64,000 nt of DNA from a virus. Where the stretch lies: positions 128,001-192,000 of the IMG/VR virus record IMGVR_UViG_3300017991_000003; one strand, written 5' to 3'. The notes beneath the pieces were generated by a model that saw only the letters and a list, made by a program, of their open reading frames with translations, ran no database searches and had not been told where the DNA came from. Made by a program: the position numbers and the translations under genes. Below, one piece after another: positions 7,025 through 58,768 of the stretch (the first letter of the stretch is position 1; each line of letters starts with the position of its first letter).

Positions 7025-7109
7025 GGCGTCTCCTGTTGGGTTGGGTGGGAACAGTGGAGGCTCGAAGCCTCGGGGTATCAGTAGACTCGTGACACAAACC
7101 CGATAAGGT

Positions 7110-16324: not shown

Positions 16325-16729
16325 GTGGATCTGGGGGTCGTTCAGGTCTCTGATCAAGTCCTGACCCCGGGCCTGGGGGACGCTCCGGTCCGGGTGTCAG
16401 GTCTTCGTGCCCTCGTACAGCAGGCGGTCATCGAGCTCATCTCGAACCCCCTGCCGGAGCGAGGGCGCGGGGCTGGGCTAGCTCAGCTCGTTGCAGCCCT
16501 GCCTCCCCAGAACCAGGCACAAGCTCGTGGCACCTTTGCGCAGGCCGTGAGCTCCGCCAAGACGCACATCTTGGCCAACCAGCGCTACGCTTCCAACCTC
16601 ACCGCGAACGAGCGGCTGCAAGACATGACCCTGCTTCGGGCCGAGCTCAATGGGCTCGTCTGGGAGATCGACATCAGGATCACCAACGTAGCCGGCGAGT
16701 CCGCCACCTTTGCCCTGCCGGTCAGCTGA
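16325..16729 (+). CDS. hypothetical protein (134 aa), GTG start
   Basis: Track ORF directly following previous stop. Confidence 0.5.
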   Translation: MDLGVVQVSDQVLTPGLGDAPVRVSGLRALVQQAVIELISNPLPERGRGAGLAQLVAALPPQNQAQARGTFAQAVSSAKTHILANQRYASNLTANERLQDMTLLRAELNGLVWEIDIRITNVAGESATFALPVS

Positions 16730-17796
16730 TGACGTCCCACAAGAGTACCCACAAGGACAAACTACCCGGCGGACTTGCGGACAAGATGCGAGATGCCGTC
16801 TTCGCGGCCTCCGCCCTCAAGGCGGGAACCAAGGTGGAGATGGAGCATACTGATGATCCGCAGCTAGCCAAGGAGGTAGCTAAGGACCATCTCGCCGAGG
16901 ATCCGCAGTACTACAAGAAGCTGCGGAAGATGGAGAAGAAGGCCGGTGGCTACGCCACCGGCTCGGTTGAGGTCGCCTCGCAGGTAGGTCGTAGGGTCTT
17001 GCCCGCCTGGAGCCGGTCGAAGAAGATTCCCGCGGGAGCGAAGCGTGCCGCAGGTATGGTTAGGCAGCAGCCGTTCGCCCCTGGTGGGAAAAACAGCCTG
17101 ATCCCCGCTTCGTCGACGACTCGCAAGCCGCTCCCGACCTTCACCTCGACATCCAAGCCGATGAGCATGGCCAAGGCCGCGATGCTGCAAGGCATGGTGA
17201 ACACGCTGGCTAAAGAGGCGGGGTGGGTGGATAAGCTCAAAGGCGGAGCCAAGAAGGCTCCCGGTGTGATCGCCCGAGAGGGCGCAGGCATCGCAACGTG
17301 GGGAGTCGGGGAAGGGGTGGCCAACAAGCTCATTCCCCGGTGGAAGCCCCCGACCCCGCGCGTGAAAGTGGCTGGGGTTGATAAGGAGGCCATCCTTCAG
17401 GCCTTGCTATGGGCGCCGGCCCTGTATGAAGGGGCCAAGGCCGCCGGCCGCGTAGCGGCTAAACCGTTCAAATCCCTCAAGCGTGGGCTAGCCCCGAAGA
17501 GCCCCAAGATCCAAGGACCGCACCCTGAAGTGCGCGCTGCGAACACCCCTGAGGTGGCTAAGGTCGCGGTATGGGGGACGCTCGCCCGTGTGGCTACTAA
17601 GCTGGCCCCTCGATTGGCTAAGGTGGCTCCGAAGACGAGTGCCCGTCTAGCGACGGCTACGCCGCAATCTACCAAGGCGCTCGCAGGACGCGCCGGTAAG
17701 GCGGCTGCTAGGGATGCGGCGCTGGGAGCCGGTACGATGGGCGCAGCTAACGCGGCAAGCCACGTGGCCCGACCGAAACGCCCTAACCCTCTGTAG
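16729..17796 (+). CDS. hypothetical Lys/Ala-rich basic protein (355 aa), possible internal virion or DNA-associated protein
   Basis: Track ORF; low-complexity K/A/P-rich C-terminal half; start overlaps upstream stop. Confidence 0.6.
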   Translation: MTSHKSTHKDKLPGGLADKMRDAVFAASALKAGTKVEMEHTDDPQLAKEVAKDHLAEDPQYYKKLRKMEKKAGGYATGSVEVASQVGRRVLPAWSRSKKIPAGAKRAAGMVRQQPFAPGGKNSLIPASSTTRKPLPTFTSTSKPMSMAKAAMLQGMVNTLAKEAGWVDKLKGGAKKAPGVIAREGAGIATWGVGEGVANKLIPRWKPPTPRVKVAGVDKEAILQALLWAPALYEGAKAAGRVAAKPFKSLKRGLAPKSPKIQGPHPEVRAANTPEVAKVAVWGTLARVATKLAPRLAKVAPKTSARLATATPQSTKALAGRAGKAAARDAALGAGTMGAANAASHVARPKRPNPL

Positions 17797-45363: not shown

Positions 45364-46803
45364 GTGAAGAAGCTCCGATTCGCCGATGGCCTGAAGCCGC
45401 TCACGTCGGACATGGACTCCATCCATGACCTGACGGAGGATGCGCTGGGTACCGTGATCCAGGCCCTTACCAGCGGCTCCAGCGGTAAGGTGCTGTTCGA
45501 CAACGTACCGCCGTCCGGTACGTATGACTCGGGAACCGGTACGATCACGGTCACCGTCCAGGCGCAGTACTATGCGGTGGGTGGTGTGGTGCTTCAGCAG
45601 CCCGAGACCGAGATCAGCGTGGCGGCCGGCACGACAGACATGCAGATCGGCGTCTTCCTCGTGGCGGGGACGGAAGGCACTCAGGCTCTGCGGAACTTCC
45701 TCTCGATCGACCCCGATACCGCTCAGGTCATCCAGCAAGACCTCAACCATGAGATCTTCGTCTCGGACGCCTCCCGAGTGGTCCTGACAACGGTCTCCGA
45801 TCTTGTGTCCAGCGTGCCGGAGCCTACTCTGGCGGCTGACGACAGCGGCTGGGTCCGTGTGGGCACCCTCCGCTTTACCGTGGCTACGGGTGCCATTACG
45901 GTGTCGAAGAACACGACCGACGTGTACACCCTGCCGGGTGGTACGACGGTCCCGGTCGCAGACCATGGTGAGACCCACCTTCCGGATGGCGCTGATCCCC
46001 TCCCTGTGAGCGCCTTGAGTGGCGGAGCTTCGGGTGGTAGCACCGCTGGTCTACTCCCGGAGGGTGGTCTCACCGCTTTGCTAGACGCTGTGCAGTCCGT
46101 GCTCCCTGCGGACTCGGCGCCCTACATCCAGGTCCTGACGACCGGCGACAACTCGGTCGACGGCTCGGACATCGACTCCAAGACGGTCACCCTCGACCTC
46201 AAGCTGCACGAGTCGATCACCACCAAGGACTCTGGTGGCACAACCAAGCTCGCCGTCAACCACGCCCCGGCCTCTGCGCTGAAAGGCACGAGTGACAGGA
46301 GCGCGCGTGAGGACCACATCCACCCCCTCGTGGAGTCGGGGTTCATCTTCCAGCAGATCACCCTGGACCTCACCACGGACAAGCTCGGCACGGTTATTCC
46401 CTACACGGTGACTGCCGCGGCTTCCGGTCAGCCCACCGCGACCGTGGCCAAGATCCTCTCGGTCACGGCCATGTGGCAACCACCCAACATCAAGGCGGGT
46501 TACGAGAACCGCAGCGTGGATAGTGGCTGGAACGTCGTGAGCTACGCTGGCTCCCTGGGGACGCTGGGATGCCGCGCCCTTGTGACTGGCAAGAACACCT
46601 TCGAGCTCGAGGTCGGCACTCTCGGTGCTGCGCACGCCTCAGATGCGGCCATTCAGGCCATCAACGACTCGGACGGCGACGGCTCTGACGCCTGGACCAA
46701 CCCCATCTACCCCACAAGCGGCGAGTTCGCCAAGACCGGCAAGATCTTCCTCTTCGTGCTTGCCTTGCGGGCCGGCTCGGTGGTCCTTGAAGACGGTCAG
46801 TGA
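45364..46803 (+). CDS. tail-fibre-like protein (479 aa), GTG start
   Basis: Ser/Thr/Gly-rich fibrous composition; location after giant fibre gene. Confidence 0.65.
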   Translation: MKKLRFADGLKPLTSDMDSIHDLTEDALGTVIQALTSGSSGKVLFDNVPPSGTYDSGTGTITVTVQAQYYAVGGVVLQQPETEISVAAGTTDMQIGVFLVAGTEGTQALRNFLSIDPDTAQVIQQDLNHEIFVSDASRVVLTTVSDLVSSVPEPTLAADDSGWVRVGTLRFTVATGAITVSKNTTDVYTLPGGTTVPVADHGETHLPDGADPLPVSALSGGASGGSTAGLLPEGGLTALLDAVQSVLPADSAPYIQVLTTGDNSVDGSDIDSKTVTLDLKLHESITTKDSGGTTKLAVNHAPASALKGTSDRSAREDHIHPLVESGFIFQQITLDLTTDKLGTVIPYTVTAAASGQPTATVAKILSVTAMWQPPNIKAGYENRSVDSGWNVVSYAGSLGTLGCRALVTGKNTFELEVGTLGAAHASDAAIQAINDSDGDGSDAWTNPIYPTSGEFAKTGKIFLFVLALRAGSVVLEDGQ

Positions 46804-46804
46804 C

Positions 46805-47104
46805 ATGGACATCTACTGGTACAAAATCCCGGCCATTGAGAACTGGTTCGGGATGATCCCTAAGAGCGCTGTCCCGCCCTCCATGCTCGATGACGTTATA
46901 GACGCCGCTGAGGCTGCTTTTTCGGCAAATGGGTGGGATATGAGCATCAAGAGTGGGCCGTACTTCTTTGCCATCCCTGCGCCGACGTATGTGGGGATCG
47001 GCTACCTAGTCCAGCAGGCGGATGGGCTAGTGTACGTGGGCTCGGAGTACCCGTTCACACATCTAGAGAGCGCGGCCATCGCTCACGGAGTAGAGACAGT
47101 CTGA
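46805..47104 (+). CDS. hypothetical protein (99 aa)
   Basis: Internal ATG (MDIYWYKIPAIENWF) of track ORF 46625..47104, placed right after the upstream stop. Confidence 0.45.
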   Translation: MDIYWYKIPAIENWFGMIPKSAVPPSMLDDVIDAAEAAFSANGWDMSIKSGPYFFAIPAPTYVGIGYLVQQADGLVYVGSEYPFTHLESAAIAHGVETV

Positions 47105-47652
47105 TGGACGCCTCCTCCAGCATTCAATCGGCCATGACTGGTCGGTTGCGGCTCTACAAGAGCACCGAGCGGCCAACGCTGGACGGTTGGGAGGACCTGG
47201 ACCTCGTCCTTGACCGACCCAACCTCGTGGTGGATACCGCTCAGACGGCCCTTCTGGGCCTTCTTCAGCGTCAGTTCACTGACTACGCCCCGGCGTACAT
47301 CGTTCTGGGAGCGGGTGGCGACCTTGAACAGGTCTCGAAACAGGACTTCGGATCTCGCGTTGCCCCTGCGGTCACCGATACGGAGGTCCGAGAAGTCGTC
47401 GCCCGTCTTCCTATCCTTCAAATCACCCCAGACGACTCTGACGACACGAGCTGGGACTACGTGACCATCGCGCGGCCCCACGAGGCCAACACCACAAGCC
47501 TCAATGAGCTGGGGCTGGAGACGGCGAACAACACGCTGATCGCCCACGTGGTCACTGATCCTGACGCCGGCGAGTCCCGCGCCAAGAAGTACGTCAAGAG
47601 CAGCCTCGAGTACCTCGTGGTCCGGTGGACCATGACCTTCACCCTGAGCTAA
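47104..47652 (+). CDS. hypothetical tail-associated protein (182 aa)
   Basis: Internal ATG (MDASSSIQSAM) of track ORF 46933..47652; 1-nt start/stop overlap. Confidence 0.5.
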   Translation: MDASSSIQSAMTGRLRLYKSTERPTLDGWEDLDLVLDRPNLVVDTAQTALLGLLQRQFTDYAPAYIVLGAGGDLEQVSKQDFGSRVAPAVTDTEVREVVARLPILQITPDDSDDTSWDYVTIARPHEANTTSLNELGLETANNTLIAHVVTDPDAGESRAKKYVKSSLEYLVVRWTMTFTLS

Positions 47653-49994
47653 TGTCCCAGTCGATCTCCACTGCCTATCACGCGCTCGACACGTCGAGGC
47701 TCCAGAACACGCGCTTCGATGGCGTGGTGCAGCCCGGGGTCTATGAGGGCTACAGAGCGCGCGCCAACTCGGGCCAACAGAACCTGATCGACCTCACGAC
47801 CGGAGACGATGACGCGAGCGTCCTTGTTACCTCCGAAGGTGTGCGCGTTGAGGAGAGCGCTACGGTCTTTGCCGCGGTCCAGGTCGATTCGGCCGATCCG
47901 AGCCTGACCCGCATCGATCTGCTCGTGGCTGAGTACCAGTACACGACGGACACGACGCAGACGCAGACCTACAAGCTCATCAAGGGCAAGAACCAGACGA
48001 ACCTGAGCGCTGACCCCGTGCGCCCCACGGTGGAGAGTGACTATCAGGTGGCCCTGGCTTGGATCACGGTCCGTCCCCAGAAGAGCACTGGCGGGGCCAT
48101 CCAGGCGAAGATCGAGAACACCGACATCATCCACGTCCCCAAGGCGGCGTGGGCAGAGGCTCCTTCGGAGCTGTCGGGCCTCAAGCCGGAGATCGATCCC
48201 AACGACGCGCGCCGGCTCTTCGTCCATCAGGGTGTGATGCCCAACGTGGACGGCACCCGGGTCATCCAGTTCCTGGGCGGCTACAGCGACGTCATCGACC
48301 CGGACACCCTCGATAACCTCCAGGAGTACTGGTACACGTTCGGCGTCGATGATCAAGGCGATGTGGAGGTCATCGGCTCGGCGGCCACCCAAGCGGCTCT
48401 GCCTGACCTCACCAACAGCAGCCTGCCTGTGGCTCAGGTGCGGGCGCAGAAGATCGGTGGCCAGATCCAGCTCCAAGAGCTGGTGGACATTCGCTTCTCG
48501 TTCAGCCGTCAACTGGCCCAGGACCAGGAGGGCTACAACTACCGGGACCTTCTGGCCAACTCCGTCTTCCGGTACCTGCGGGTCGACACGTTCACGGACG
48601 ACTCGCTGCTTGATCTCGACTCCGTGGAGCTAGCCACAACTGAAGATGCTAGTGACCTCACGGCTGAGATTGATAGCAGCGACACCAGCCTGACCGTCAC
48701 GTGGTCAGGAACGACGTCGGTGCCGTCCGAAGAGGTGGCTATCGTCACCACGAACCTGCTCTCCGGCACTGCGATCTCCAAGATCGAGCACTTCATGCTT
48801 GCCGTGGAGGCCGGCTTCGAGAACCTCGAGTTCCGCTACAGCACGAGCTCGGCTACGAGCGGGTTCAGCACTACGCGGCACAGCCCCGGCGAGATCGTCC
48901 GCATCCCGTTCAACGGCGCGACCAAGCTCTACATCAAGTTCCTGATCCCCGTCTCGGGGTTCAGCTCGGGCGAGGCCAAGATCTTCAGCTACGGCGCCCT
49001 GATCAACTTGAGTGGTGGCGCTGTCAACGCGACGACCCTGGGTGACCTAGGTCTCCTGGCTTTCCCCTACTCGGTCAACAACCTGGTGGCCAACGGCAGC
49101 TTCTACTACTGGAGCCGGCCGCTGTCCGACGGGACCGAGCCTGACCTGACCAGCCAGGATGAGCAGAGCTTCGCGCTCAGCTCCGAAGACGACTATCCGC
49201 TGGTGGCCGACGGCTGGCAGATGACCAAGTTCCCGACCCCTGTGGCCGGTGAGGTGGTCAAGCGCATCATTCGGGACCAGGGCGATAACACCGCTGCTAC
49301 GGCGATCGAGATCACGACCTCGGCCGCTGACGAGGCTGGCGCGGTCAACGTCATGGAGTACCGGATCCCGGTGGGCGCGGAGATGCAGGGGCAGTACCTG
49401 ACCCTAGCCGCGGCCTTCGAGACCACGACGCCCCAGTCCCTTGCTGTGGGGCTCGCCATGTACCGGCGCACCTCCAGCGGCCTGACGCTCAAGGAGAAGG
49501 ACGAGACCTACGCCAAGACAACCAGCGGCGAGATCTACGTGCGCTCCAGCTCTGCCATCGGCCCCGACGTGGACCAGATCAGCGTCTACGTGCTCATGAT
49601 CGCCAGCACGGCCGAGGTCACGCATAGGCTCTGGGATGTGCGCACGGCGGCTGGTGAGTTCTCGAGCCTCCCGATGCTCAAGGTGGTCGATGCCCCTGAC
49701 GTCCTGCGCCAGTACTACGAGCGTGGGCGCATCTACACGGCGCAGAACGTCACCGAGAACGTCCAGGTAGGCGCCGCGACCCAGTTCGGGGCCACCAAAG
49801 CCGAGAGCCTCGGCACCCTGGTGGGGCGCACGGTGCCTGTGAGTAGCGCCAACCGCTCGACCAACGTCGGCGACCTCATCTACTCGGCGGATCGTCACGG
49901 TCTGCTCATCACCGCAACCTCGAGCTCTTCGGGCGTGTCCACTGTGGACGCTGATTGGGAGAGCTTCGTCAAGTTCGAGTCCAGCGTCCTATGA
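47652..49994 (+). CDS. tail-fibre-like protein (780 aa)
   Basis: Internal ATG (MSQSISTAYH) of track ORF 47625..49994 overlapping upstream stop; contains NLVANGSFYYW carbohydrate-binding-module-like motif. Confidence 0.65.
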   Translation: MSQSISTAYHALDTSRLQNTRFDGVVQPGVYEGYRARANSGQQNLIDLTTGDDDASVLVTSEGVRVEESATVFAAVQVDSADPSLTRIDLLVAEYQYTTDTTQTQTYKLIKGKNQTNLSADPVRPTVESDYQVALAWITVRPQKSTGGAIQAKIENTDIIHVPKAAWAEAPSELSGLKPEIDPNDARRLFVHQGVMPNVDGTRVIQFLGGYSDVIDPDTLDNLQEYWYTFGVDDQGDVEVIGSAATQAALPDLTNSSLPVAQVRAQKIGGQIQLQELVDIRFSFSRQLAQDQEGYNYRDLLANSVFRYLRVDTFTDDSLLDLDSVELATTEDASDLTAEIDSSDTSLTVTWSGTTSVPSEEVAIVTTNLLSGTAISKIEHFMLAVEAGFENLEFRYSTSSATSGFSTTRHSPGEIVRIPFNGATKLYIKFLIPVSGFSSGEAKIFSYGALINLSGGAVNATTLGDLGLLAFPYSVNNLVANGSFYYWSRPLSDGTEPDLTSQDEQSFALSSEDDYPLVADGWQMTKFPTPVAGEVVKRIIRDQGDNTAATAIEITTSAADEAGAVNVMEYRIPVGAEMQGQYLTLAAAFETTTPQSLAVGLAMYRRTSSGLTLKEKDETYAKTTSGEIYVRSSSAIGPDVDQISVYVLMIASTAEVTHRLWDVRTAAGEFSSLPMLKVVDAPDVLRQYYERGRIYTAQNVTENVQVGAATQFGATKAESLGTLVGRTVPVSSANRSTNVGDLIYSADRHGLLITATSSSSGVSTVDADWESFVKFESSVL

Positions 49995-50626
49995 GCCAGG
50001 TTCAGCCAGTTCGCAGCGGTACTGTCGTACTAAGCGGCGTCTTCGAGAAGATCACCACGGAGGGTGACAGCTCGAACTTCCTAGGCTCCAACGCGGGCCT
50101 CAGCCAACTTTTCCGTGCCACTGAGGACACTGGGAGCTCGGTCGACCACAGCTACGGCGTGCTGGTCACCGATGTTGACTCGGTTACGGACGGGTATGGC
50201 AACACCCTCTACACCTACGACTTCACGCTGGACTTCAACTACTTGGTTGGTGCCAAGCAGCTGATCGTGCAGCTCAAGACCACGCCTACGGCCACCCAAC
50301 CGGTCGCAGGCTTTGTGACGCTCCCCTCCAAGGAGCTGATCGACACGGACCCCGCAGCCAATGCTTGGGATCCCTACTACGAGGAGATCGACTCGACCAC
50401 CGTGCGGGTTCACAACATCCTCGACTCGCGCATCATCCTTGCGCTGATTCCGCACACGGCCATCCCGGCTACCAACAAAGAGAAGATCACGGTCCAGAAT
50501 CAAGGCAACAACGAGGCTATCGAGCTCGAGGGTGCTGGTGACGGCGTGATCTTCCGAACGCCTAACGGGAGCCGCTGGTTGTTCCGAATCGATGATTCTG
50601 GAACCACTGCCATCGTGCCCCGGTAA
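49991..50626 (+). CDS. hypothetical tail protein (211 aa)
   Basis: Internal ATG (MSQVQPVRSG) of track ORF 49955..50626; ATGA overlap with upstream stop. Confidence 0.55.
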   Translation: MSQVQPVRSGTVVLSGVFEKITTEGDSSNFLGSNAGLSQLFRATEDTGSSVDHSYGVLVTDVDSVTDGYGNTLYTYDFTLDFNYLVGAKQLIVQLKTTPTATQPVAGFVTLPSKELIDTDPAANAWDPYYEEIDSTTVRVHNILDSRIILALIPHTAIPATNKEKITVQNQGNNEAIELEGAGDGVIFRTPNGSRWLFRIDDSGTTAIVPR

Positions 50627-50629
50627 GTC

Positions 50630-51346
50630 ATGTGCGACGTCATCGCCCCTCTTGGAGTCAGCCTGTTCTTGATGACGGCTGCTTTCATCTATGCTGTTTT
50701 TCAGAACAAGAAACTACGGCAGGCTCCAAGGTGCATATTCCCCTCGTCGGCCTGCCCGCATGACGGTCACAAGAACAAGGTGATGCGTGAGAAGGCCGTG
50801 GCCTTCGAGGCCGCTTTCAACAACGCGGCACACGGCATGGCGGTCGTCGACATCGACGGGAGCTGGGTACGCGTGAACGATGCCCTTATCGACATGCTTG
50901 GGTACACGCGAGAGGAGCTCGTGTCCGGGATGACGTTCCAAGACGTCACGCATCCGGACGATCTCGACAAAGACCTGAAGCTGATGCAAAAGCTCCAGGA
51001 CGGTCATATTCGGAAGTATCACCTGGCCAAGAGGTACATCCGCAAGGACGCTCACGTGATCTACATCATGCTGTCCGTCAGCCTGATCCGTAACCTGAGT
51101 GATCATCCGCTGTTCTATGTCTCGCAGATTATCGAGCGCACCGCAGACCAGGTGGAGCTCGATCGACTGCGGGAAGAGGCCCGCCGGTGGCGTTCTGAGG
51201 CGCTTTTGTGGGAGCAGCGCCTAGAGTCTACCCGGCAGCGCCATAACGAGGCGTTGGATCGGCTGATCCAGCCCTCGAGTGCTCCCTCCGTCGAAGAGCC
51301 GAGCACGTCTCAGCCGTCCACTAAGCCGCACCAGGATCATGACTAA
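50630..51346 (+). CDS. membrane-anchored PAS-domain protein (238 aa)
   Basis: N-terminal hydrophobic helix (VIAPLGVSLFLMTAAFIYAVF) followed by a PAS-like region (FEAAFNNAAHGMAVVDIDGSWVRVNDALIDMLGYTREELVSGMTFQDVTHPDDLD...). Confidence 0.6.
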   Translation: MCDVIAPLGVSLFLMTAAFIYAVFQNKKLRQAPRCIFPSSACPHDGHKNKVMREKAVAFEAAFNNAAHGMAVVDIDGSWVRVNDALIDMLGYTREELVSGMTFQDVTHPDDLDKDLKLMQKLQDGHIRKYHLAKRYIRKDAHVIYIMLSVSLIRNLSDHPLFYVSQIIERTADQVELDRLREEARRWRSEALLWEQRLESTRQRHNEALDRLIQPSSAPSVEEPSTSQPSTKPHQDHD

Positions 51347-51761
51347 CGAACCGGCCTCAAGACAACAAGTGGATACGCTGATCAAAGCTGTAGAGGGGCT
51401 CGCAGCCAAGGTAGACGCAAATACCGTGGCCATCGCCGAGCGTGGTTCGGACTTCCGAGCTATGAAGGCGGAGCTTGAGCGTGTGCGCCAGCAGGTGCAT
51501 GACACCCATCAGTACATCCACACAGGCAATGGTCGTGAGGCCTTGTCGACGCGGATGCTTGTGGCGGAGCGTGAGTTGGCCGAGCTTGTGGCCAAGGCGC
51601 TAGCCAGGGAGCAGCTGGAGGCTGAGGAGCGCCTCACCAAGGACGCGGAGGCCCGGGCCTACGCCCGCAGCATCCGAATCGCCATCTTGACGAGTGCTGC
51701 GGCCCTACTAGGGGTGGGGATCAACATCGTGTACTTGATGGCGTCCGGGGGCGCGTCGTGA
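51339..51761 (+). CDS. coiled-coil protein with C-terminal transmembrane segment (140 aa)
   Basis: Internal ATG (MTNEPASRQQ) of track ORF 51279..51761; C-terminal IAILTSAAALLGVGINIVYLMA hydrophobic segment. Confidence 0.5.
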   Translation: MTNEPASRQQVDTLIKAVEGLAAKVDANTVAIAERGSDFRAMKAELERVRQQVHDTHQYIHTGNGREALSTRMLVAERELAELVAKALAREQLEAEERLTKDAEARAYARSIRIAILTSAAALLGVGINIVYLMASGGAS

Positions 51762-52081
51762 TTGAGCACCTGCTAGCTGGCCTACTCGATGGACTCGAGA
51801 AGGAGGCCGGCCGTGCGCCGCGTGCTCCTGAGTACAAGGTCCTCGATAAACATCGAGTTGCCTTGACGCCTGGCGAGCGCGCCTACGTCATGGACAACAA
51901 GGCCGTCTGGCACCGCGCGTGGAAGAACGGCAAGCAGGTGCCCAGTCCTGCTGTCTGGAAGGCTGTCATGCCCGACGGTAAGGTTTGGTACGTGACCAAC
52001 ACGCATCGGGTTATGAACGCGCGCCCCACGGTGCGTGGGGCTGTTAGCCGCTACCACAAGTTCATCAAGACCACGGCATGA
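51758..52081 (+). CDS. hypothetical protein (107 aa), GTG start
   Basis: Track ORF; GTGA overlap upstream and ATGA overlap downstream. Confidence 0.45.
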   Translation: MIEHLLAGLLDGLEKEAGRAPRAPEYKVLDKHRVALTPGERAYVMDNKAVWHRAWKNGKQVPSPAVWKAVMPDGKVWYVTNTHRVMNARPTVRGAVSRYHKFIKTTA

Positions 52082-53160
52082 GCCAGCGCTTCGCCACCAC
52101 CCACCAGGCGGTCAACCTCCTGCGTAACGGGAGCCTCGAGATGGTCGAGGCCCTGGACAGCGGTGCGCAGAAGCCCCATTTCTGGTCATTCGACGCCCTG
52201 ATCCACGAGGCGCTTCAAGATGCGGTCGTGGTAAACACCTTCGAGGTCCTTCAGGAGGATCCTGGACCGGCCCCGGCTAGCCGGTTTCGTGTGGAGCTTG
52301 TCACGGGCGAGCCCTCCAAGCTCTATCAGGACACGACCCGGGACGCCTCGGTCCACGTCCAGGATTTCCCGGTCCCGCTAGCGCCGTCGTTGAAGCCGGC
52401 GCTGCCGCAGGGCCACTTTTCTACCGAGGTCCACGCCCTCCCCAAGGGGGATTACACGCTCTCCTTCGATGTTCGGGCCTACCAAGGCACCGTGTCGATC
52501 GATCCAGCTGCTTGGGACCTCGTCGGAGCGGTGCAGACGCCGACCTACCCCACTGGCCAGACTTCCGTGACACTGGGAGCTAGTGCCATCTGGCGCCGGA
52601 TCACCATCCAGTTCTCGGTCGACTACGCCCTGGGCGGTGTCGGGCTCCAACTAGAGCGCACAACGTCCTCCGGTCTGGCTGTGGTAGAGATCGGCAACGT
52701 CATGTTGGCTCAGGGGCACTACCGCTACCTTCCGTACACCGGCGACCCGCTCCTCTCGGCCATCCCCAAGGGGGCGATCATCCTCACCATGGGGTCTGTG
52801 TGCCCTCCTGGCTTCGAGGAGATCGGCGAGGATGGTCTTGAGCCTCTGCCTGAGTGGGTGGCTGATGAGCCCAACATCCTGGCACGCAAGGGTAACTACC
52901 CGCGCGAGGGCACGGAGCTAGTGGGAACGACCTCGCATACTGTGGATGCTGTCGAGATCACTCCGGGCACCACGGATGCGCTCGAGTTCTCCGGTCCCGA
53001 CAGCAAGGTGGTTGATGGGACTCTCGTCGACACCTCCAAATCCAATCCGGCGACGGACGAGCCCGGCGGGTCTCAGGGCGTCCCGGAGCATGATCACACG
53101 ATTGAGACGGCAGGTACGCGGCCGGTGAGCCGCGGCTACCTCCTTTGCCGGCGCATCTGA
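52078..53160 (+). CDS. tail-fibre protein with CBM-like N-terminus, collar-like domain and C-terminal HxH motif (360 aa)
   Basis: AVNLLRNGSLE (carbohydrate-binding-module-like start), IILTMGSVCPPGFEE (tail-collar-like), PEHDHT near C-terminus; paralogous to the next two fibre genes. Confidence 0.7.
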   Translation: MSQRFATTHQAVNLLRNGSLEMVEALDSGAQKPHFWSFDALIHEALQDAVVVNTFEVLQEDPGPAPASRFRVELVTGEPSKLYQDTTRDASVHVQDFPVPLAPSLKPALPQGHFSTEVHALPKGDYTLSFDVRAYQGTVSIDPAAWDLVGAVQTPTYPTGQTSVTLGASAIWRRITIQFSVDYALGGVGLQLERTTSSGLAVVEIGNVMLAQGHYRYLPYTGDPLLSAIPKGAIILTMGSVCPPGFEEIGEDGLEPLPEWVADEPNILARKGNYPREGTELVGTTSHTVDAVEITPGTTDALEFSGPDSKVVDGTLVDTSKSNPATDEPGGSQGVPEHDHTIETAGTRPVSRGYLLCRRI

Positions 53161-56100
53161 TGGAAGTGAACACCCTCAACCAGCGCAACGCGCTGAACCT
53201 CCTGCGTAACGGCTCCTTCTCGCAAGGAGTCGCGCACTGGTGGGGGAGCTATCTACGCCACAAGCGCAGCTCCGGAGGCCAGACGCTGGGCTCCAATGCT
53301 CCTGAGTATGCTCTGGAGGTCTTCCAGGCCCAGGACACGAGCTATCCAGACTCGGTGACGCCCGGGGCGCATCAGTGGGTGGATCGCCCGGATCTATTCA
53401 CCTATCCCAGCCAGCGGCTGGTGAGCGGCCTGCGCCTCATTCCTTTTACGGATGATCGAGCGCTGCTCCAGGTCGTGCCGGAGCTGACGGCGATGGATGG
53501 GGTCGTCCTCGCTGAGCCGGACGCTGCGGAGATCCCGACCTACTCCGATATCTTCCAGCACCCGTTCGTGCACCTGGAGCCGGATGGGACGCGTGTGAAC
53601 ATCGAGGCGGGTTCGGTCCTGCCTCTCACGGATACCCGGCGCCCGGAGTCGAGCGGCCTGTACCGTGTGGGCTCCTTCCTGGAGAACCGGAATGGAACCG
53701 GTGTGGCGTCGGACTATGACCCGTCCAACTACCACGAGTACACCTACCACGGCCTGGAGATCAATCCGCTGAGCGGAGGCTCGTACAAGGCTCTGATGAC
53801 CCACGAGACGAGCGGCGTGGTCACGGCCGCCATCACCGCGGAGGCGTCGGGCCTGTACACCGTGGTGACGATCTCGGTCGACAAGGACGTGGTGCGCGGC
53901 TTGGATCGCGAGCAGCCTGGGTACACCCCGGAGCTTGGCTTGGCGGTCGGTGATGTGTTCACCATGACCGAGCCGGTGCTGCGCTCGGGCGTGATCACTC
54001 AGGTGGCGATCTCGGACGACCAGACGGTCGTGACGCTCATCCCACTCGCTAACTATGGCGACTACGTGGTCACCCCGTTCGTGGAGGACGTGACCCCGGA
54101 GGCCTGGTCGATCTACGCCACGTCGGTCGCTACGGTGCGGCGCACCATGCCGCTGTACGCCTACGACTTCACCCTGGGCTACACCTGCCGGATCAACGAC
54201 GGCTACTCAGCCCCGGCCGAGACCTCGATGGTGGCCCGGACTCTTTCGGGCACGGGGACTCTTGTGGGCACAGGCACGGTCGGCGCTGAGATCCCGCGCA
54301 TCGGCGGCAAGCGCAAGATCGTCAACCTCCTAATCGACGAGGACACGGTCGACGGGGCGTGGCAACGCCGGCTCGAACGTCACTTCCGGGAGGCCTCGGC
54401 TCCGCTGGAGGGGCGTATCGACCTCTCGGTCCTGCCCCCGGCCGGCTCCGAAGACAGCTACCCCACTCCAACCAGCAAGCTGCCTGACTCGGTCTACTGG
54501 TACTTCTTCACGGACCTGGATGGGGAACTTCCGAACCTCAACGATCCGCCGGAGTCGATCGAGGACACGCCGCACTTCCAGATCAACATCCCGGTCGACG
54601 AGAACAACCTGCCTCCGGCTGAGTGGCTGGCCGGCAACAAGGAGTTCACGGTCACGCCCTTCGGCGACACGTCCGAGCTCGAGGAGCAGTTCTCCTGGAT
54701 CATTCCGCTGCTGCTCGTTCCTAGCTTCACGGCGCAGGCAGCGCTGCTAGAGGTCCCCGACGAGACCTATCCGGCTCTGCTGAAGCTCTACGTCGCCTGG
54801 GATACCGACGAGTTCGGCGCCTTCCCTAGCGTGGATGGCTTCAACATCGGCTGGAACAGCACAGTGACGGCTACCTGGGGCTTCAACGTCAAGGGTCTGA
54901 ACGGCTCTGGTGCGCGCGCTCTGGTCTCGGACGTCTTCATGACCCACGGGGATCAGGCGCAGCGGCTCGAGAAGCTCGATGACACGGCCCTGCCTGTCAC
55001 AGGCCCGCTCACCGATGATGTCTCGATCGATCCCCTGCGCCACGGGGTCGATCTCTTGGAGAACGTGATCCCGCCCGGGGCGGTGGTCCTCTACGCCGGC
55101 GGCGGTACCTGCCCTCCGGGCTTCAAGCGAGTGGAGAGCTTCCCCGACGCCGCTGTAGCGGGAATCGGCTCGGACGCTGATCTGACCCTCACTGACGCAA
55201 CCGTCGTCTACGACACGGCCCGTGATCGGACCAAGATCACCTGGACGGGTCGGGAGTTCCCGCTCTATGACGATGACGGGGGTGTGATCCCGATCCCTGA
55301 GCTCGCTCTCTCGGTCAGCAAGCCGATTCCAGGCATCCCGGACTCTCTCCAGGAGGTCAAGTTCACGCCGAGCCAGCAGGTGGTACAGCCGGGCATGGCG
55401 GTTCGTGTCCCTGAGTTCCTCATGGACTCGACGATCACCGAGACCGACCCGCTGTTCTCTTCGGAGACCCTCGGCAAGGCCATGCGCGCTGTAGGTGGCT
55501 GGGCGCAGCTGCATCGCCCCGAGGAGCCACTATTCAGCCGACTCGGTGTCGAGCTGTGGTTCCAGACCCAGAGCAGCATCACGACTTCTGGCGATGAGCG
55601 CCTGTCGTGGATCTTCCGCCAGGCCAAGAAGGTCGGCGATGATGTGATCAGCTGGGGCCTTCTGTACGTCACGTCTGGCACGGACGGGGGCAAGCTCGAG
55701 TGGCGTGTCGAGACGGTCGGCTCCCTGGGTGCCCGCACAGACGTCTATCGCATGACCACGGCGGCCCTTCCGGTTAGCGGATTCGCCGGTGACTGGATGC
55801 ACATCATCGTGGAGTTCAGCGCGCCCAACTCCGGTACGGTCGGCGAGCCGGGCCAGGGCGTGACCCCTGATGTGCGCATCACCTTCAGCGATACGGAGGA
55901 CTCCTACGGCACGCTGATCGAGAGCCACAACTTCGGCGTGGTACAGGCAGGGGCTGATCTGGCCAAGGGCGCCGTGCTGCGGCTAGGCCACACCCCCGAG
56001 GTAGATGGCGCGCTGGGGACGAGCTCCTATACCGACCCGGTGACCGGGAACCTGATCACCCTGGCCGCCAAGCACATCGACAACTTCCGCGTCTTCGATC

Positions 56101-57377
56101 TCTCTAGTCAGGAGATGACCGAGTCGGAGCGTGTGGCTCTGTGGAATAGCGGGAAGGGTCTGGCCCTGGCACCGGCCGAGCTCCAGAGTCGTCTTGTCAC
56201 CGAGGTGCGCTTCGATGAGGGCTACGGCTCCACGGCTGTGGACTCGGCCCCGGTCAACTGGACAGAGCCCGTCCAGCTGCAAGGCGCCGCCTCGTGGACT
56301 ACGGGTCACGTGCTGGCCTTGGGCGGCTCAGACTTCGGGACGGACGACTACCGCGCGCCCTTCGAGGACAAGGCGCGTAGCTACCTCGTCACCAAGGTCG
56401 AGTCGATTCTGGTCGAGGCCGAGGGCGCCTTCGCCAGCGGCATCCCCTACAACCCCTCGGCCAACCCGGTTGGTAACGGGCTCGGGGACGTGCTGTACCC
56501 CTTCTCGGTGTCTGAAGACGATCTGATGGAGGGGGATAAGACCATCATGCCGCTCGGCCCGGGCCTCACAGGCCAGTCGGCCACCTTCGATGGTGGGGCG
56601 GTGCTTTCTGGGCAGTTCTGGAACGGCACGTCGAGCGGAGGGCTGTTCTCGACGATCACGATGCGGAACTTCGGATCGCAGCCGTCAGATTGGAACCCGC
56701 AGGTGGGCGACGTCTACTTCCTCCAGTGGGAGAGCTCAGACAACCCCGGCCTGGCCCTCGGATGGTTCCCGGCACGTCTGACCGACATCACGATCGAGAC
56801 GGGTATCCCGGTGTACCGCTACTACACCTTCCAGCGGTATGACGGGCGCAAGATCCAGCTGACCCCGGCCGAGTACCAGCAGCTCAGTTACGAGGACGCG
56901 TTGTCCGGGGACAAGGGCACGATCACGGTCCGCCCGGTCAAGCTCTTTGGCGACGGGGAGCAGGTTGTGGCATCGGAGACCGGTGCCATCACTCCGCAGG
57001 CTGTGACCATCTCGGAGACCTTCTACAACTCGACGCGCTACTGGGTGGTACGCCGGCTGAGCAACAACCTCGAGCTCGAGGTCAAGGGCGACCTATCCAT
57101 CCCCACCGGTCAGACTGAGATCCATGTCGAGGCCACGGGCTATCTGCGCTACGATGATCCTGAGGACAAGATGGACTACGGCGCAGGCGGACACAGTCAC
57201 CGGGTGGGTGGCGCTCTCACGGCTACCGACGATTTGATCCCCAGGATCTCCGAGACCGGTTCCCTGGCGTCCGAGCCCTATCAGGCTGTGGCGCAGGATC
57301 ACGACCATGGGTTCCAGAGCGTCTTCCGGTTCCCGCTGCCCAAGTTCCGCCTATTCACGGCCTGCCAGAAGCTCTAG
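53160..57377 (+). CDS. large tail-fibre protein paralog (1405 aa)
   Basis: Internal ATG (MEVNTLNQRN) of track ORF 53145..57377; LNLLRNGSF, VVLYAGGGTCPPGF collar-like motif, C-terminal GGHSHR and DHDHG. Confidence 0.75.
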   Translation: MEVNTLNQRNALNLLRNGSFSQGVAHWWGSYLRHKRSSGGQTLGSNAPEYALEVFQAQDTSYPDSVTPGAHQWVDRPDLFTYPSQRLVSGLRLIPFTDDRALLQVVPELTAMDGVVLAEPDAAEIPTYSDIFQHPFVHLEPDGTRVNIEAGSVLPLTDTRRPESSGLYRVGSFLENRNGTGVASDYDPSNYHEYTYHGLEINPLSGGSYKALMTHETSGVVTAAITAEASGLYTVVTISVDKDVVRGLDREQPGYTPELGLAVGDVFTMTEPVLRSGVITQVAISDDQTVVTLIPLANYGDYVVTPFVEDVTPEAWSIYATSVATVRRTMPLYAYDFTLGYTCRINDGYSAPAETSMVARTLSGTGTLVGTGTVGAEIPRIGGKRKIVNLLIDEDTVDGAWQRRLERHFREASAPLEGRIDLSVLPPAGSEDSYPTPTSKLPDSVYWYFFTDLDGELPNLNDPPESIEDTPHFQINIPVDENNLPPAEWLAGNKEFTVTPFGDTSELEEQFSWIIPLLLVPSFTAQAALLEVPDETYPALLKLYVAWDTDEFGAFPSVDGFNIGWNSTVTATWGFNVKGLNGSGARALVSDVFMTHGDQAQRLEKLDDTALPVTGPLTDDVSIDPLRHGVDLLENVIPPGAVVLYAGGGTCPPGFKRVESFPDAAVAGIGSDADLTLTDATVVYDTARDRTKITWTGREFPLYDDDGGVIPIPELALSVSKPIPGIPDSLQEVKFTPSQQVVQPGMAVRVPEFLMDSTITETDPLFSSETLGKAMRAVGGWAQLHRPEEPLFSRLGVELWFQTQSSITTSGDERLSWIFRQAKKVGDDVISWGLLYVTSGTDGGKLEWRVETVGSLGARTDVYRMTTAALPVSGFAGDWMHIIVEFSAPNSGTVGEPGQGVTPDVRITFSDTEDSYGTLIESHNFGVVQAGADLAKGAVLRLGHTPEVDGALGTSSYTDPVTGNLITLAAKHIDNFRVFDLSSQEMTESERVALWNSGKGLALAPAELQSRLVTEVRFDEGYGSTAVDSAPVNWTEPVQLQGAASWTTGHVLALGGSDFGTDDYRAPFEDKARSYLVTKVESILVEAEGAFASGIPYNPSANPVGNGLGDVLYPFSVSEDDLMEGDKTIMPLGPGLTGQSATFDGGAVLSGQFWNGTSSGGLFSTITMRNFGSQPSDWNPQVGDVYFLQWESSDNPGLALGWFPARLTDITIETGIPVYRYYTFQRYDGRKIQLTPAEYQQLSYEDALSGDKGTITVRPVKLFGDGEQVVASETGAITPQAVTISETFYNSTRYWVVRRLSNNLELEVKGDLSIPTGQTEIHVEATGYLRYDDPEDKMDYGAGGHSHRVGGALTATDDLIPRISETGSLASEPYQAVAQDHDHGFQSVFRFPLPKFRLFTACQKL

Positions 57378-57380
57378 GTC

Positions 57381-58499
57381 ATGGCGACTCCAGACGTACC
57401 CACGTACCACAACCTCGCTGCCAGCAGCCGTAGCCGGCTGAATCTGGTGAGCAACGGGGGCTTCACGGCCTACTCCGGGGGGTTGGGCGTCGTGGAGGAC
57501 ACGTTGGCGCTTCGTAAGGGCGGGGATGCCGAGGTCGTGCGGCAGGATCTGATCGACAAGCGGCTCTACCAGGACGTGAGTGCCTCGTTCTCGGTCCCTG
57601 CGGAGGCTGGTGGAGAGAACATCCTGGGCCATTGGGACATCTACGGCACCGATGGCGCTCTCGAGGTCGCCCCTGTCGACGACCAGACCGACCAGGTGAT
57701 CCCTTCGCAGGACGGAGGCAACCTGATGCGGGTTTCCTTCACGTCCGCGGGCACGATCACCATGGATCAGCGGCTCGAGGACACCGCTCCGCTGCGTGGA
57801 CAGATCCTGAGCGTCACGTACACGGGTCGCAGCTTCACTCAATCCGTGCTGGTCGACGCCCAGGTGGTCGTTGACGGCGAGGTGGTCTCCAATCTACAGC
57901 AGCAGTCCAAGACCTTCGGTGCCCGGCGCCGGCCGCTCTTCACAGCGACCATTCCGAGCACTGCCAAGGAGGTCCTGATCCGCTTCGAGCTCTCTGGAGG
58001 GCCTGGAAGCGCGGTTGGATTCGCTGGAATCGCCGTTTTCCTGGGGGATACGGGCCCGACGGCGGCCTACACCCCTAGCGTGGCTGATCTCACAGTGTCC
58101 TCGGGCACGGTGATCCTGTGGAGTGGTGAGACCTGCCCGGCGGGGTACCGTACCCTGCCTGGGAGCACGGAACGCATGGCCTTGCTCACGGGGGGACCGG
58201 CAAACTTTATGTCGGCCGGGGGCGAGGCCACCTTCACCGGTGGTCAGGACACCCATGATCACCACCCTGATGGGGCCGCAGATACTCTGGAAGCCCCTTT
58301 GACAAGCGCACACGACACCGACACGCCGATCCCCTTCGAGAAGCAGACCGCGGTCCACGGTGTGGAGTTCGGATCTCAGGATCAGTACCCCGGTGAGAAG
58401 CCCGTGTACGCTCTAGGCGTCGAGCACACCCACAAGACGCGCTCGGACATGACGTCGATCCCACCCTGCTTCCCGGTGCGCTACTGCGTCAAGATCTGA
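57381..58499 (+). CDS. tail-fibre protein paralog (372 aa)
   Basis: LNLVSNGGF N-terminal motif, VILWSGETCPAGY collar-like motif, C-terminal THDHH and EHTHK. Confidence 0.7.
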   Translation: MATPDVPTYHNLAASSRSRLNLVSNGGFTAYSGGLGVVEDTLALRKGGDAEVVRQDLIDKRLYQDVSASFSVPAEAGGENILGHWDIYGTDGALEVAPVDDQTDQVIPSQDGGNLMRVSFTSAGTITMDQRLEDTAPLRGQILSVTYTGRSFTQSVLVDAQVVVDGEVVSNLQQQSKTFGARRRPLFTATIPSTAKEVLIRFELSGGPGSAVGFAGIAVFLGDTGPTAAYTPSVADLTVSSGTVILWSGETCPAGYRTLPGSTERMALLTGGPANFMSAGGEATFTGGQDTHDHHPDGAADTLEAPLTSAHDTDTPIPFEKQTAVHGVEFGSQDQYPGEKPVYALGVEHTHKTRSDMTSIPPCFPVRYCVKI

Positions 58500-58768
58500 T
58501 GGCCCGTCCTGCTGTAACCCTCTACTACCAGAGCAACTGCGGTTTCTGCCCAGATGCGATTGAGGGGTGTGCGGGCCTCGTAGAAGCCCTGGGTGCTCCT
58601 ATCCTTATTCGTAAGCCGACTTTGCAGGAAATGAAGTCCGGGCAGATCCCTGGCTATCCCGCCCTGTTCGTGCCGGCTGGGGTCCGAGGCCTCACCCGCC
58701 CCTATCTCCTGGTAGGTGCGGCCCTCCCCGACCTCCTTGACCAGTTGCTGAGCTCCACGGATGGCTGA
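58499..58768 (+). CDS. glutaredoxin/thioredoxin-fold small redox protein (89 aa)
   Basis: TLYYQSNCGFCPDA: CxxC active-site-like motif in a beta-alpha start typical of glutaredoxin-like proteins. Confidence 0.55.
   Translation: MARPAVTLYYQSNCGFCPDAIEGCAGLVEALGAPILIRKPTLQEMKSGQIPGYPALFVPAGVRGLTRPYLLVGAALPDLLDQLLSSTDG

What the first reader, a model, noticed from the sequence alone, without database searches (positions are those of the whole stretch)
50630..52081. Membrane-anchored PAS-domain protein and a C-terminally anchored coiled-coil protein inserted within the tail-fibre cluster
PAS domains are sensory modules; a PAS protein with an N-terminal transmembrane helix between tail-fibre genes is unexpected. 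The three-gene insert (PAS protein, coiled-coil protein with C-terminal TM segment, small protein) appears slightly lower in GC than its flanks by eye and is translationally coupled. It may be a moron that senses host state, or part of a lysis or membrane-targeting function.
Basis: partly seen in the sequence, partly recalled or inferred. Interest (0 to 1): 0.5.

Follow-up and report, generated by a model that had tools for sequence, protein, structure and literature searches.

The report
Phage membrane PAS sensor gene pair
An uncultured large phage carries, among its tail-fibre genes, a swappable two-gene unit: a membrane-tethered PAS sensor protein and a small tail-anchored helical membrane protein. 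The pair most likely controls a membrane event such as lysis timing, but its function is untested.

Summary
Gene 50630-51346 encodes an N-terminal TM helix, a genuine PAS domain (Pfam E=8e-11; TIGR00229 E=4e-20; AF2 pLDDT>95) and a long C-terminal helix. Gene 51339-51761 encodes a helical protein with a C-terminal TM anchor. The genes overlap.

Three points need correcting:
- The variable unit is two genes, not three. The 107-aa gene is conserved in all four sister lineages.
- GC and GC3 are not anomalous.
- There is no promoter or terminator signal of its own.

Two sister phage lineages with the same flanking genes lack the pair and carry other small membrane proteins in that slot. An unrelated lambda-like siphovirus contig carries the same pair after its central tail fibre J gene.

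The tail-anchored protein is the basic unit and occurs without PAS in other contigs. In the siphovirus contigs it sits directly before a 2-TM holin-like gene and a gene with unimolecular-spanin architecture. This resembles XhlA/gp24.1 + XhlB/gp26 two-component holins in architecture only.

Best reading (about 0.35): a cytoplasm-facing PAS sensor gates a holin-accessory-like membrane protein. Rivals are superinfection exclusion and interference with host signalling. PAS domains occur in other phages; this pairing has not been described.

The parts
50630..51346 (+). TM-PAS-helix protein (238 aa), the optional 'sensor' half of the two-gene module
   Evidence: Pfam PAS, PAS_9 and PAS_3 above cut-off; TIGR00229 E=3.8e-20 and a partial DgcE-type PRK09776 match E=7e-38; AF2 model pLDDT 83; identical gene call in metagenome contigs.
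50639..50695 (+). N-terminal transmembrane helix (residues 4-22), with no positive residues before it and KKLRQAPR after it. Predicted topology is N-out/C-in, which places the PAS domain in the cytoplasm.
   Evidence: Kyte-Doolittle 2.04; AF2 helix 8-30. The homologues in L003 and L014 have the same layout once the L014 start is corrected to the TGATG overlap. Topology is inferred from the positive-inside rule.
50732..50755 (+). Juxtamembrane cysteine pair C35...C42, invariant in the three phage proteins and absent from the bacterial PAS homologues
   Evidence: Alignment A6 compared with A3. A role in redox sensing, metal binding or a disulfide is speculative.
50792..51136 (+). PAS core (about residues 55-169). 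It contains no cysteine, so it cannot form a LOV-type photoadduct. No cofactor signature was identified.
   Evidence: the sequence read directly.
51140..51268 (+). Long C-terminal helix (residues 171-213), followed by a disordered Pro/Ser-rich tail. It is a candidate docking helix. No kinase, GGDEF or DNA-binding output domain is present.
   Evidence: AF2 helix 171-213; no other Pfam domain.
51339..51761 (+). CC_TM: tail-anchored helical membrane protein (140 aa), the primary unit of the module
   Evidence: Gene call. An exhaustive HMMER search finds a small family of 123-141-aa proteins with the same layout. AF2 gives helix 6-62, a break, helix 66-98 and TM helix 106-137 at low confidence.
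51519..51539 (+). Family-defining motif H-x-G-N-G-[RK]-[EP] (H61-E67) at the break between the two cytoplasmic helices
   Evidence: H61, G63, N64 and G65 are invariant in A4. The AF2 helix break falls at residues 63-65.
51678..51734 (+). C-terminal transmembrane anchor (residues 114-132), rich in Gly/Ala/Ser. Arg residues precede it and an uncharged 8-residue tail follows, giving a predicted N-in (cytoplasmic) topology.
   Evidence: Kyte-Doolittle 1.99. The same feature is present in all family members.
51758..52081 (+). s107: small soluble protein of unknown function. It is conserved next to the downstream fibre-like gene in all four sister lineages, so it is not part of the variable module.
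   Evidence: 69% identity in L003 and homologues in L010/L012 and L013. No TM segment. No Pfam or NCBIfam hit.
49991..50626 (+). g215: conserved upstream flank that marks the left edge of the variable slot
   Evidence: 60-64% identity across lineages, conserved to its last residues. The slot begins 3 nt after its stop codon.
52078..53160 (+). g360: conserved downstream fibre-like gene
   Evidence: 60% identity in L003; weak phrog_4492 tail-fibre hit E=0.0046; shares a CPPGF motif with the next gene.

Best explanation
The feature is a horizontally exchanged two-gene membrane module carried in a variable slot of the late tail-fibre operon of an uncultured phage. Metagenome contigs carrying the identical PAS protein reach 193 kb.

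The effector half is CC_TM. It is a tail-anchored inner-membrane protein whose roughly 110-residue helical hairpin, with a conserved HxGNG[RK][EP] tip, faces the cytoplasm. Its small-residue-rich TM helix can self-associate.

The sensor half is a PAS domain held at the membrane by an N-terminal anchor and also facing the cytoplasm. It has no enzymatic or DNA-binding output, only a long C-terminal helix. I infer that this helix docks on CC_TM. In that way a cytoplasmic cue sensed by the PAS domain or by the conserved Cys pair (metabolite, redox or energy state) would modulate CC_TM activity.

The most likely activity is control of a late membrane event, namely holin triggering or lysis timing. 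CC_TM would act like the XhlA/gp24.1 'single C-terminal TM' partner of two-component holins.

Shown here: the domain content, the accessory status, the pairing, and the genomic neighbourhoods. Inferred: the topology, the PAS-CC_TM contact, and the lysis role.
For: 1. The PAS domain is real. No output domain is present.
2. The pair is conserved in a syntenic sister lineage: PAS 51%, CC_TM 50%, flanks 55-76% identity. It is replaced by unrelated small membrane proteins in two other sister lineages with the same flanks.
3. The same pair, again overlapping and in the same order, lies after central tail fibre J (phrog_31, E=2e-60) in an unrelated siphovirus-type contig, L014.
4. The PAS gene is always immediately 5' of CC_TM, whereas CC_TM occurs without PAS in L027, L032/L033 and L028-31.
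5. L014 and L027 are 71-83% identical in the flanking genes but only 41% identical in CC_TM. The PAS-linked CC_TMs (window/L003 versus L014) share about 33% identity, against 24-29% for window/L003 versus the PAS-less copies. This fits unit exchange or co-evolution.
6. In L014, L027 and L032, CC_TM is followed by a 71-77-aa protein with two TM segments and a basic C-terminus. Next comes a protein with a lipobox which, in L014 where the gene is complete, also has a C-terminal TMD; this is the architecture that defines unimolecular spanins (PMC6139136).
7. There is precedent. SPP1 gp24.1 and PBSX XhlA have a single C-terminal TM helix and act only together with a canonical 2-TM holin (PMC6316719, PMC10630273). 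phiKZ gp143 regulates a holin through the holin's cytoplasmic domain (PMC12894885).
Against: - No sequence homology to XhlA was found. The only match is PF10779 at E=0.14 in one family member, which is coiled-coil noise.
- No endolysin was found next to the module in L014 or anywhere in the 64-kb window.
- No 2-TM holin candidate exists in the window.
- In L028-31, CC_TM is a lone opposite-strand gene inside a replication region. That position suits an exclusion gene or a moron at least as well.
- CC_TM lacks the charged C-terminal tail typical of holins.
- The PAS-CC_TM contact and both topologies are predictions. The AF2 model of CC_TM has low confidence (pLDDT 56).
- The host is unknown.
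Confidence: 0.35

Rival explanations
1. Superinfection exclusion or another membrane-level exclusion or defence function. In this reading the slot holds interchangeable membrane proteins that protect the infected cell from other phages or block DNA entry, and the PAS protein tunes that activity.
For: The slot holds unrelated small membrane proteins in sister lineages. It lies beside fibre or receptor-binding genes, where exclusion genes such as T5 llp and cor are known to sit (from my own knowledge). A lone, divergently oriented CC_TM gene with a 290-nt upstream spacer lies inside an early/replication region in L028-31, across 21 contigs.
Against: Both proteins are predicted to expose almost nothing to the periplasm, which is unusual for proteins that block receptors or injection. 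CC_TM is a conserved, overlapping member of a three-gene membrane cluster in the siphovirus contigs rather than a sporadic add-on. There are no meaningful PADLOC hits, only coiled-coil noise. Expression appears to be coupled to late structural genes.
Confidence: 0.2
2. Interference with host signalling. In this reading the TM-PAS-helix protein is a truncated copy of a host sensor (histidine kinase or diguanylate cyclase type). It heterodimerises with the host protein through the PAS domain and signalling helix and so rewires two-component or c-di-GMP signalling. CC_TM would be a cofactor or membrane scaffold.
For: The closest non-phage relatives are PAS domains placed directly before HisKA, HisKA_3, GerE or GGDEF outputs, at 42-53% identity over the core. 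There is a strong partial match to the DgcE-type diguanylate cyclase model (E=7e-38). The PAS domain plus following helix is retained while the output is missing. A precedent exists for phage peptides that target a PAS-containing cyclase, YfiN (PMC8085984).
Against: This does not explain the strict linkage to CC_TM, or the existence of CC_TM without PAS. The three phage PAS proteins share derived features not seen in the bacterial homologues: the Cys pair, a one-residue insertion and the N-terminal anchor. That argues for long residence in phages rather than fresh mimicry of one host protein. The genome scan found only generic PAS sensors from many phyla, and no specific host target can be named.
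Confidence: 0.15
3. Virion or tail-fibre assembly factor, that is, a membrane-bound scaffold or chaperone for the neighbouring fibre proteins.
For: The pair is embedded in, and translationally coupled to, the fibre-like gene run. It lies downstream of fibre genes in both phage types.
Against: It is absent from two sister lineages whose fibre-like genes are 58-73% identical and syntenic. It moves between phages with unrelated tail modules. CC_TM also occurs far from structural genes.
Confidence: 0.05

Closest known systems
XhlA (B. subtilis PBSX) / SPP1 gp24.1, the holin-like partner of the two-component holins XhlA+XhlB and gp24.1+gp26
   Same: A small phage protein with a helical N-terminal part and a single C-terminal TM helix. 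Its gene lies directly before a canonical 2-TM holin-type gene and after the tail genes, as in L014, L027 and L032 (PMC6316719, PMC10630273).
   Different: There is no detectable sequence homology. In the window phage no 2-TM partner or endolysin is adjacent. The hosts here are probably Gram-negative (lipobox and spanin-like gene; a GT25 LPS-type enzyme in the window). No PAS partner is known for XhlA.
Cytoplasmic holin regulators: phiKZ gp143, and T4 RIII (the latter from my own knowledge)
   Same: A phage protein that acts on the cytoplasmic part of a membrane lysis protein to shift lysis timing (PMC12894885).
   Different: Those regulators are soluble and have no sensory domain. Here the candidate regulator is membrane-anchored and carries a PAS domain. 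No interaction has been shown.
VqmA-Phage of vibriophage VP882, a phage PAS-domain receptor that triggers lysis
   Same: A phage-encoded PAS domain used to couple a cellular or chemical cue to the lysis decision (PMC8284805).
   Different: VqmA-Phage is a soluble transcription factor made of a PAS domain and a DNA-binding domain. The protein here has no DNA-binding domain, is membrane-anchored, and is paired with a membrane protein.
Short stand-alone PAS/LOV proteins with N- and C-terminal helices (for example PpSB1-LOV, W619_1-LOV, MrLOVe), and small 'PAS domain' proteins of uncultured Caudovirales in BFVD
   Same: The fold and the N-cap helix, PAS core and long C-terminal helix layout. The best Foldseek hits are 9vf7 and 5luv at E~1.5e-8. 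Viral PAS proteins of 165-205 aa exist.
   Different: The PAS core has no flavin-binding cysteine. Sequence identity is only 14-22%. None of those proteins is known to have an N-terminal TM anchor or a CC_TM partner.
Morons in the sense of Hendrix and co-workers
   Same: Presence/absence polymorphism between close relatives, inserted between conserved late genes.
   Different: No detectable promoter or terminator of its own and no deviant composition. The slot is never empty; it holds alternative membrane proteins.

Membership tests
PAS domain (Pfam PF00989 / TIGR00229) | Profile match above the curated cut-off | tested here: met
   PF00989 scores 42.4 bits against a cut-off of 22.6. TIGR00229 scores 72.3 bits against 22.9.
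PAS domain (Pfam PF00989 / TIGR00229) | PAS fold: an antiparallel beta-sheet flanked by helices | tested here: met
   The AF2 model has strands at 69-73, 78-82, 129-137, 143-154 and 160-169, with pLDDT 95-98. Foldseek finds 627 PDB matches at E<=0.001; the 50 listed are all PAS/LOV.
LOV / flavin photoreceptor PAS | Conserved adduct-forming cysteine in the PAS core (NCRFL-type motif) | tested here: not met
   The only cysteines are C2, C35 and C42, all outside the PAS core (sequence).
Sensor histidine kinase | DHp (HisKA) and HATPase_c domains after the PAS domain | tested here: not met
   No such Pfam hit at E<0.1. The protein ends with one helix and a disordered tail.
VqmA-type phage PAS receptor | C-terminal DNA-binding (HTH) domain | tested here: not met
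   No DNA-binding domain is detected.
Moron | Own promoter and terminator | tested here: not met
   The consensus scan finds no more sites than shuffled sequence, and none flanks the pair. The genes overlap their neighbours. The scan covers only sigma-70-type promoter signals and intrinsic terminators.
Moron | Nucleotide composition different from the flanks | tested here: not met
   GC3 is 0.74-0.75 against 0.80 +/- 0.06 for the window's genes. The GC dip comes mostly from codon position 2.
Moron | Present or absent between otherwise syntenic relatives | tested here: met
   Absent from L010/L012 and L013, present in the window and in L003-L008.
XhlA / gp24.1 holin-like family (PF10779) | Sequence profile match | tested here: not met
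   The best match is E=0.14 in one of six members, well below the cut-off.
XhlA / gp24.1 holin-like family (PF10779) | Single C-terminal TM helix and a gene adjacent to a 2-TM holin | tested here: inconclusive
   The C-terminal TM helix is present in all members. A 2-TM gene follows in L014, L027 and L032 but not in the window, L003 or L028.
XhlA / gp24.1 holin-like family (PF10779) | Lethal or lytic only when co-produced with the partner holin | not testable with these tools
   This needs expression experiments.
Canonical holin | Small size, at least one TMD, a charged hydrophilic C-terminal tail, and adjacency to an endolysin gene | tested here: not met
   CC_TM ends 8 uncharged residues after its TMD. 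No endolysin was detected in the window or next to the module in L014.
Unimolecular spanin (applies to the L014 159-aa neighbour, not to the window genes) | N-terminal lipoylation signal plus a C-terminal TMD | tested here: met
   Lipobox LPGC with C23, TMD at 106-124 (Kyte-Doolittle 2.25), and a basic tail. The definition is taken from PMC6139136. Function is untested.

The most novel reading that the evidence does not exclude
A phage lysis (or membrane-permeabilisation) switch with a built-in cytoplasmic sensor. A membrane-tethered PAS protein reads the infected cell's metabolic or redox state and, through a helix-helix contact, gates a tail-anchored holin-accessory protein. The two genes travel together between unrelated phages as a plug-in 'sensory lysis timer'.
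Probability: 0.25. Interest if true: 0.8.

Novelty: new variant of a known kind. Interest (0 to 1): 0.5.

Why it matters
Phage lysis timing is usually described as an internal holin clock, with only a few known external inputs such as T4 lysis inhibition and quorum-sensing receptors that act on transcription. A PAS sensor wired directly to a membrane lysis component would be a new, post-translational way for a phage to match lysis, or another membrane event, to host physiology. It would also be a compact two-gene part for engineering.

Even if the lysis reading is wrong, three results stand:
- A previously undescribed small protein family, tail-anchored and carrying the HxGNG[RK][EP] motif.
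- An optional PAS partner for that family.
- A hot-swap slot for membrane proteins inside a tail-fibre operon.

The finding rests on metagenomic sequence only. The host is unknown and no function has been tested.

Tried and rejected
- Cultured-phage relatives: blastn and tblastn of the region, the PAS protein, CC_TM, g789 and the baseplate gene against 50,697 phage genomes found nothing.
- Prophage copies and host assignment: two scans of species-representative genomes found no CC_TM. They found only generic PAS sensors from many phyla, so the host remains unknown.
- IMG/VR scans returned only two relevant contigs.
- Word-indexed homologue searches for CC_TM and s107 returned only the queries themselves.
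- PHROGs, Pfam, NCBIfam and PADLOC gave nothing meaningful for CC_TM or s107. The sub-threshold hits (DUF1664, JetC, LmuB, Cas12f) are coiled-coil noise and were discarded.
- The foreign-composition argument was rejected.
- The idea that s107 is related to the DUF5661 protein in the window was rejected.
- The AF2 model of CC_TM was too poor to use in a fold search.
- No population variation exists among L003-L008, which are identical in this region, so no dN/dS test was possible.
- LOV and heme-type cofactor assignments: the LOV type is excluded by the lack of a core cysteine. No other cofactor could be assigned.
Full report
**1. What is at the coordinates**

On the + strand the window carries a tightly packed run of genes from 45364 to 63299. 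Within it are three ORFs:
- 50630-51346, 238 aa
- 51339-51761, 140 aa (the longer GTG-started 160-aa reading is not used by metagenome gene callers or supported by homologues)
- 51758-52081, 107 aa

These follow. The PAS ATG lies 3 nt after the upstream stop. PAS and CC_TM overlap by 8 nt. CC_TM/s107 and s107/g360 each overlap by 4 nt.

The first protein matches PAS profiles well above the curated cut-offs:
- PF00989, E=8e-11
- PAS_9 and PAS_3, E~2e-9
- TIGR00229, E=3.8e-20
- a partial match to the DgcE-type diguanylate cyclase model PRK09776, E=7e-38

An AlphaFold2 model built on 15 homologues has pLDDT 95-98 across residues 51-210. It shows a TM helix (8-30), an N-cap helix (44-65), the PAS core (69-169) and a 43-residue C-terminal helix (171-213). 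Foldseek places it among PAS and short-LOV structures that have N- and C-terminal helices, at E~1e-8. No kinase, cyclase or DNA-binding domain is present.

Hydropathy gives one TM segment at residues 4-22 of the PAS protein and one at residues 114-132 of the 140-aa protein. The 107-aa protein has none. By the positive-inside rule (an inference), both soluble parts face the cytoplasm.

The PAS core has no cysteine, so a LOV-type mechanism is excluded.

**2. Composition and signals**

The PAS gene has GC 0.58 against 0.635 for the window. The dip starts in the upstream gene and comes mainly from codon position 2. GC3 values (0.75, 0.74, 0.73) lie about 1 SD or less below the mean of the window's genes (0.80 +/- 0.06). 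Promoter-like and terminator-like sites are no more frequent than in shuffled sequence, and none brackets the genes. There is therefore no compositional or transcriptional sign of a recent foreign insert.

**3. Genomic setting**

The phage is uncultured. Nothing in 50,697 phage genomes matches the region or its proteins. Identical copies occur in metagenome contigs of up to 193 kb.

Upstream lie a baseplate-wedge gene (phrog_6, E=1.4e-17) and a 3406-aa ORF. The flanking large proteins have only a weak tail-fibre hit. 'Tail-fibre cluster' is therefore plausible but not proven.

**4. Comparison with relatives**

Lineage L003-L008 is perfectly syntenic and keeps all three genes. Identities are PAS 51%, CC_TM 50% and s107 69%, against 55-76% for the flanks.

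Two further lineages share the flanks at 58-73% identity but lack both the PAS gene and the CC_TM gene:
- L010/L012 carry a roughly 100-aa protein with two TM segments and a charged C-terminal helix in the slot.
- L013 carries a 156-aa protein with an N-terminal TM segment and a coiled-coil-like remainder.

All four lineages keep the s107 homologue directly before the g360 homologue. The variable unit is therefore two genes, in a slot that always holds some small membrane protein. The third gene belongs to the conserved backbone.

**5. The pair elsewhere**

An exhaustive HMMER search with CC_TM found only a handful of relatives. All are 123-139 aa and share an invariant H-x-G-N-G motif and a C-terminal Gly/Ala/Ser-rich TM helix.

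One of them (P0018) lies in IMG/VR contig L014. This contig has a lambda-like siphovirus tail module, with central tail fibre J at E=2e-60. There CC_TM is again immediately preceded by, and overlaps, a TM-PAS-helix gene that is 47% identical to the window's. The correct start of that PAS gene overlaps the upstream stop as TGATG, which places its TM helix at the very N-terminus as in the window.

The three phage PAS proteins share two juxtamembrane cysteines and a one-residue insertion that the bacterial homologues lack.

Relatives of L014 (L027 and L032/L033) have CC_TM in the same place without any PAS gene. In another group (L028-31, 21 contigs) CC_TM is a lone opposite-strand gene inside a replication region.

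L014 and L027 are 71-83% identical in the neighbouring genes but only 41% identical in CC_TM. The PAS-linked CC_TMs (window/L003 versus L014) share about 33% identity, against 24-29% for window/L003 versus the PAS-less copies.

I conclude three things:
- CC_TM is the basic unit.
- The PAS protein is an optional partner that is always placed 5' of it.
- The two genes are exchanged or co-evolve as a unit, which implies that they work together.

**6. Clues to function**

In L014, L027 and L032, CC_TM is followed by overlapping genes for two further membrane proteins:
- a 71-77-aa protein with two TM segments and a basic C-terminus, which is the class II holin architecture;
- a protein with a lipobox. 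L014, the only contig holding this gene in full, adds a glycine-zipper region, a C-terminal TMD and a basic tail, giving the architecture that defines unimolecular spanins.

These rest and on PMC6139136.

A holin-like protein with a single C-terminal TM helix that works only together with a canonical 2-TM holin is known from PBSX (XhlA/XhlB) and SPP1 (gp24.1/gp26). It is typically encoded after the tail genes (PMC6316719, PMC10630273). Cytoplasmic regulators that act on a holin's cytoplasmic domain are also known, for example phiKZ gp143 (PMC12894885).

This makes a lysis-control role the best-supported reading. CC_TM would be an XhlA-like accessory and the PAS protein a cytoplasmic sensor that gates it.

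The support is by architecture and neighbourhood only, and several points count against it:
- There is no sequence homology to XhlA.
- No endolysin was found beside the cluster or in the window.
- The window has no 2-TM holin candidate.
- The lone CC_TM in L028-31 fits an exclusion gene or a moron at least as well.

I put this reading at about 0.35.

**7. Rivals**

- Superinfection exclusion or another membrane defence (0.2) fits the variable slot next to the fibre genes. It fits poorly with proteins that expose almost nothing to the periplasm and with the conserved three-gene cluster in the siphovirus contigs.
- Interference with host PAS-containing sensors (0.15) fits the origin of the domain. 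The closest relatives are PAS domains of HisKA, HisKA_3, GerE and GGDEF proteins at 42-53% identity. It does not explain the linkage to CC_TM.
- An assembly role (0.05) is contradicted by the absence of the pair from syntenic relatives.

**8. Novelty**

PAS domains in viruses are uncommon but known. BFVD holds about 22 PAS-fold viral proteins, including small stand-alone ones from uncultured Caudovirales. VqmA-Phage is a characterised example (PMC8284805).

Full-text searches found no paper that links a PAS domain to a phage holin, antiholin or exclusion protein. The following appear to be undescribed:
- the CC_TM family;
- its strict pairing with a membrane-anchored PAS protein that has no output domain;
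- the movement of the pair between unrelated phages;
- the hot-swap slot for membrane proteins inside a tail-fibre operon.

I rate it a new variant of known kinds (phage accessory membrane modules, and holin partners or regulators). Interest is moderate because the function is unproven.

Noticed in passing
window 35054-45274 (+): A 3406-aa ORF directly after the baseplate-wedge gene. It has a 3449-aa homologue in the L003 lineage and no Pfam or PHROG hit. It may be a giant virion or baseplate-associated protein.
   Followed up: partly
window 9552-12646 (+): A cluster of glycan-modifying enzymes: a sulfotransferase (PF03567), two SAM methyltransferases, and a family-25 LPS-type glycosyltransferase (PF01755). 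It may modify the host surface or the virion, and it hints at a Gram-negative host.
   Followed up: no
window 5004-5090 and 5165-5250 (-): Two adjacent tRNA-Leu genes with anticodons TAG and CAA.
   Followed up: no
window 16729-17796 (+): A 355-aa protein with an N-terminal DUF5661 match (E=4e-12), followed by a long tail rich in Lys, Ala and Pro.
   Followed up: no
window 52078-53160 and 53145-57377 (+): Two successive fibre-like proteins share an 'NLLRNGS' motif near the N-terminus and an 'IP.GA..L..G..CPPGF' motif. Both end with histidine-rich HxH-type tails. This suggests modular, paralogous receptor-binding proteins.
   Followed up: partly
window 6122-7129 (-): A 335-aa protein with a signal-anchor and lipobox-like 'FVAC' sequence. 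Apart from the PAS/CC_TM pair it is the only convincing membrane or lipoprotein candidate in the window.
   Followed up: no
L014 8363-9047; L027 513-924; L032 2986-3548: After CC_TM, the siphovirus-type contigs carry a 2-TM holin-like gene and then a gene with a lipobox. L014, where this gene is complete, shows a glycine-zipper region and a C-terminal TMD as well (u-spanin-like). No endolysin is recognisable nearby.
   Followed up: partly
L028-L031 (for example L028 8001-8420): A lone CC_TM homologue (P0020) lies on the opposite strand inside a replication region (DnaB, DNA methylase, ParB_N). It has a 290-nt upstream spacer and is seen in 21 contigs.
   Followed up: partly
window 51758-52081; L003 11073-11393; L012 7051-7329; L013 7143-7460: The small s107 family has the motif 'AVWK..PDGK.WYVTNT...ARPT.R.A' and no match in any profile library. 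Different pipelines call identical DNA as either a 106-aa protein (GTG start) or a 63-aa protein (ATG start).
   Followed up: partly
L012 6542-7006 and L013 6676-7146: The alternative occupants of the slot are a protein with two TM segments and a charged C-terminal helix, and a 156-aa protein with an N-terminal TM segment and a coiled-coil-like remainder. Neither is related to the PAS protein, to CC_TM, or to the other.
   Followed up: partly
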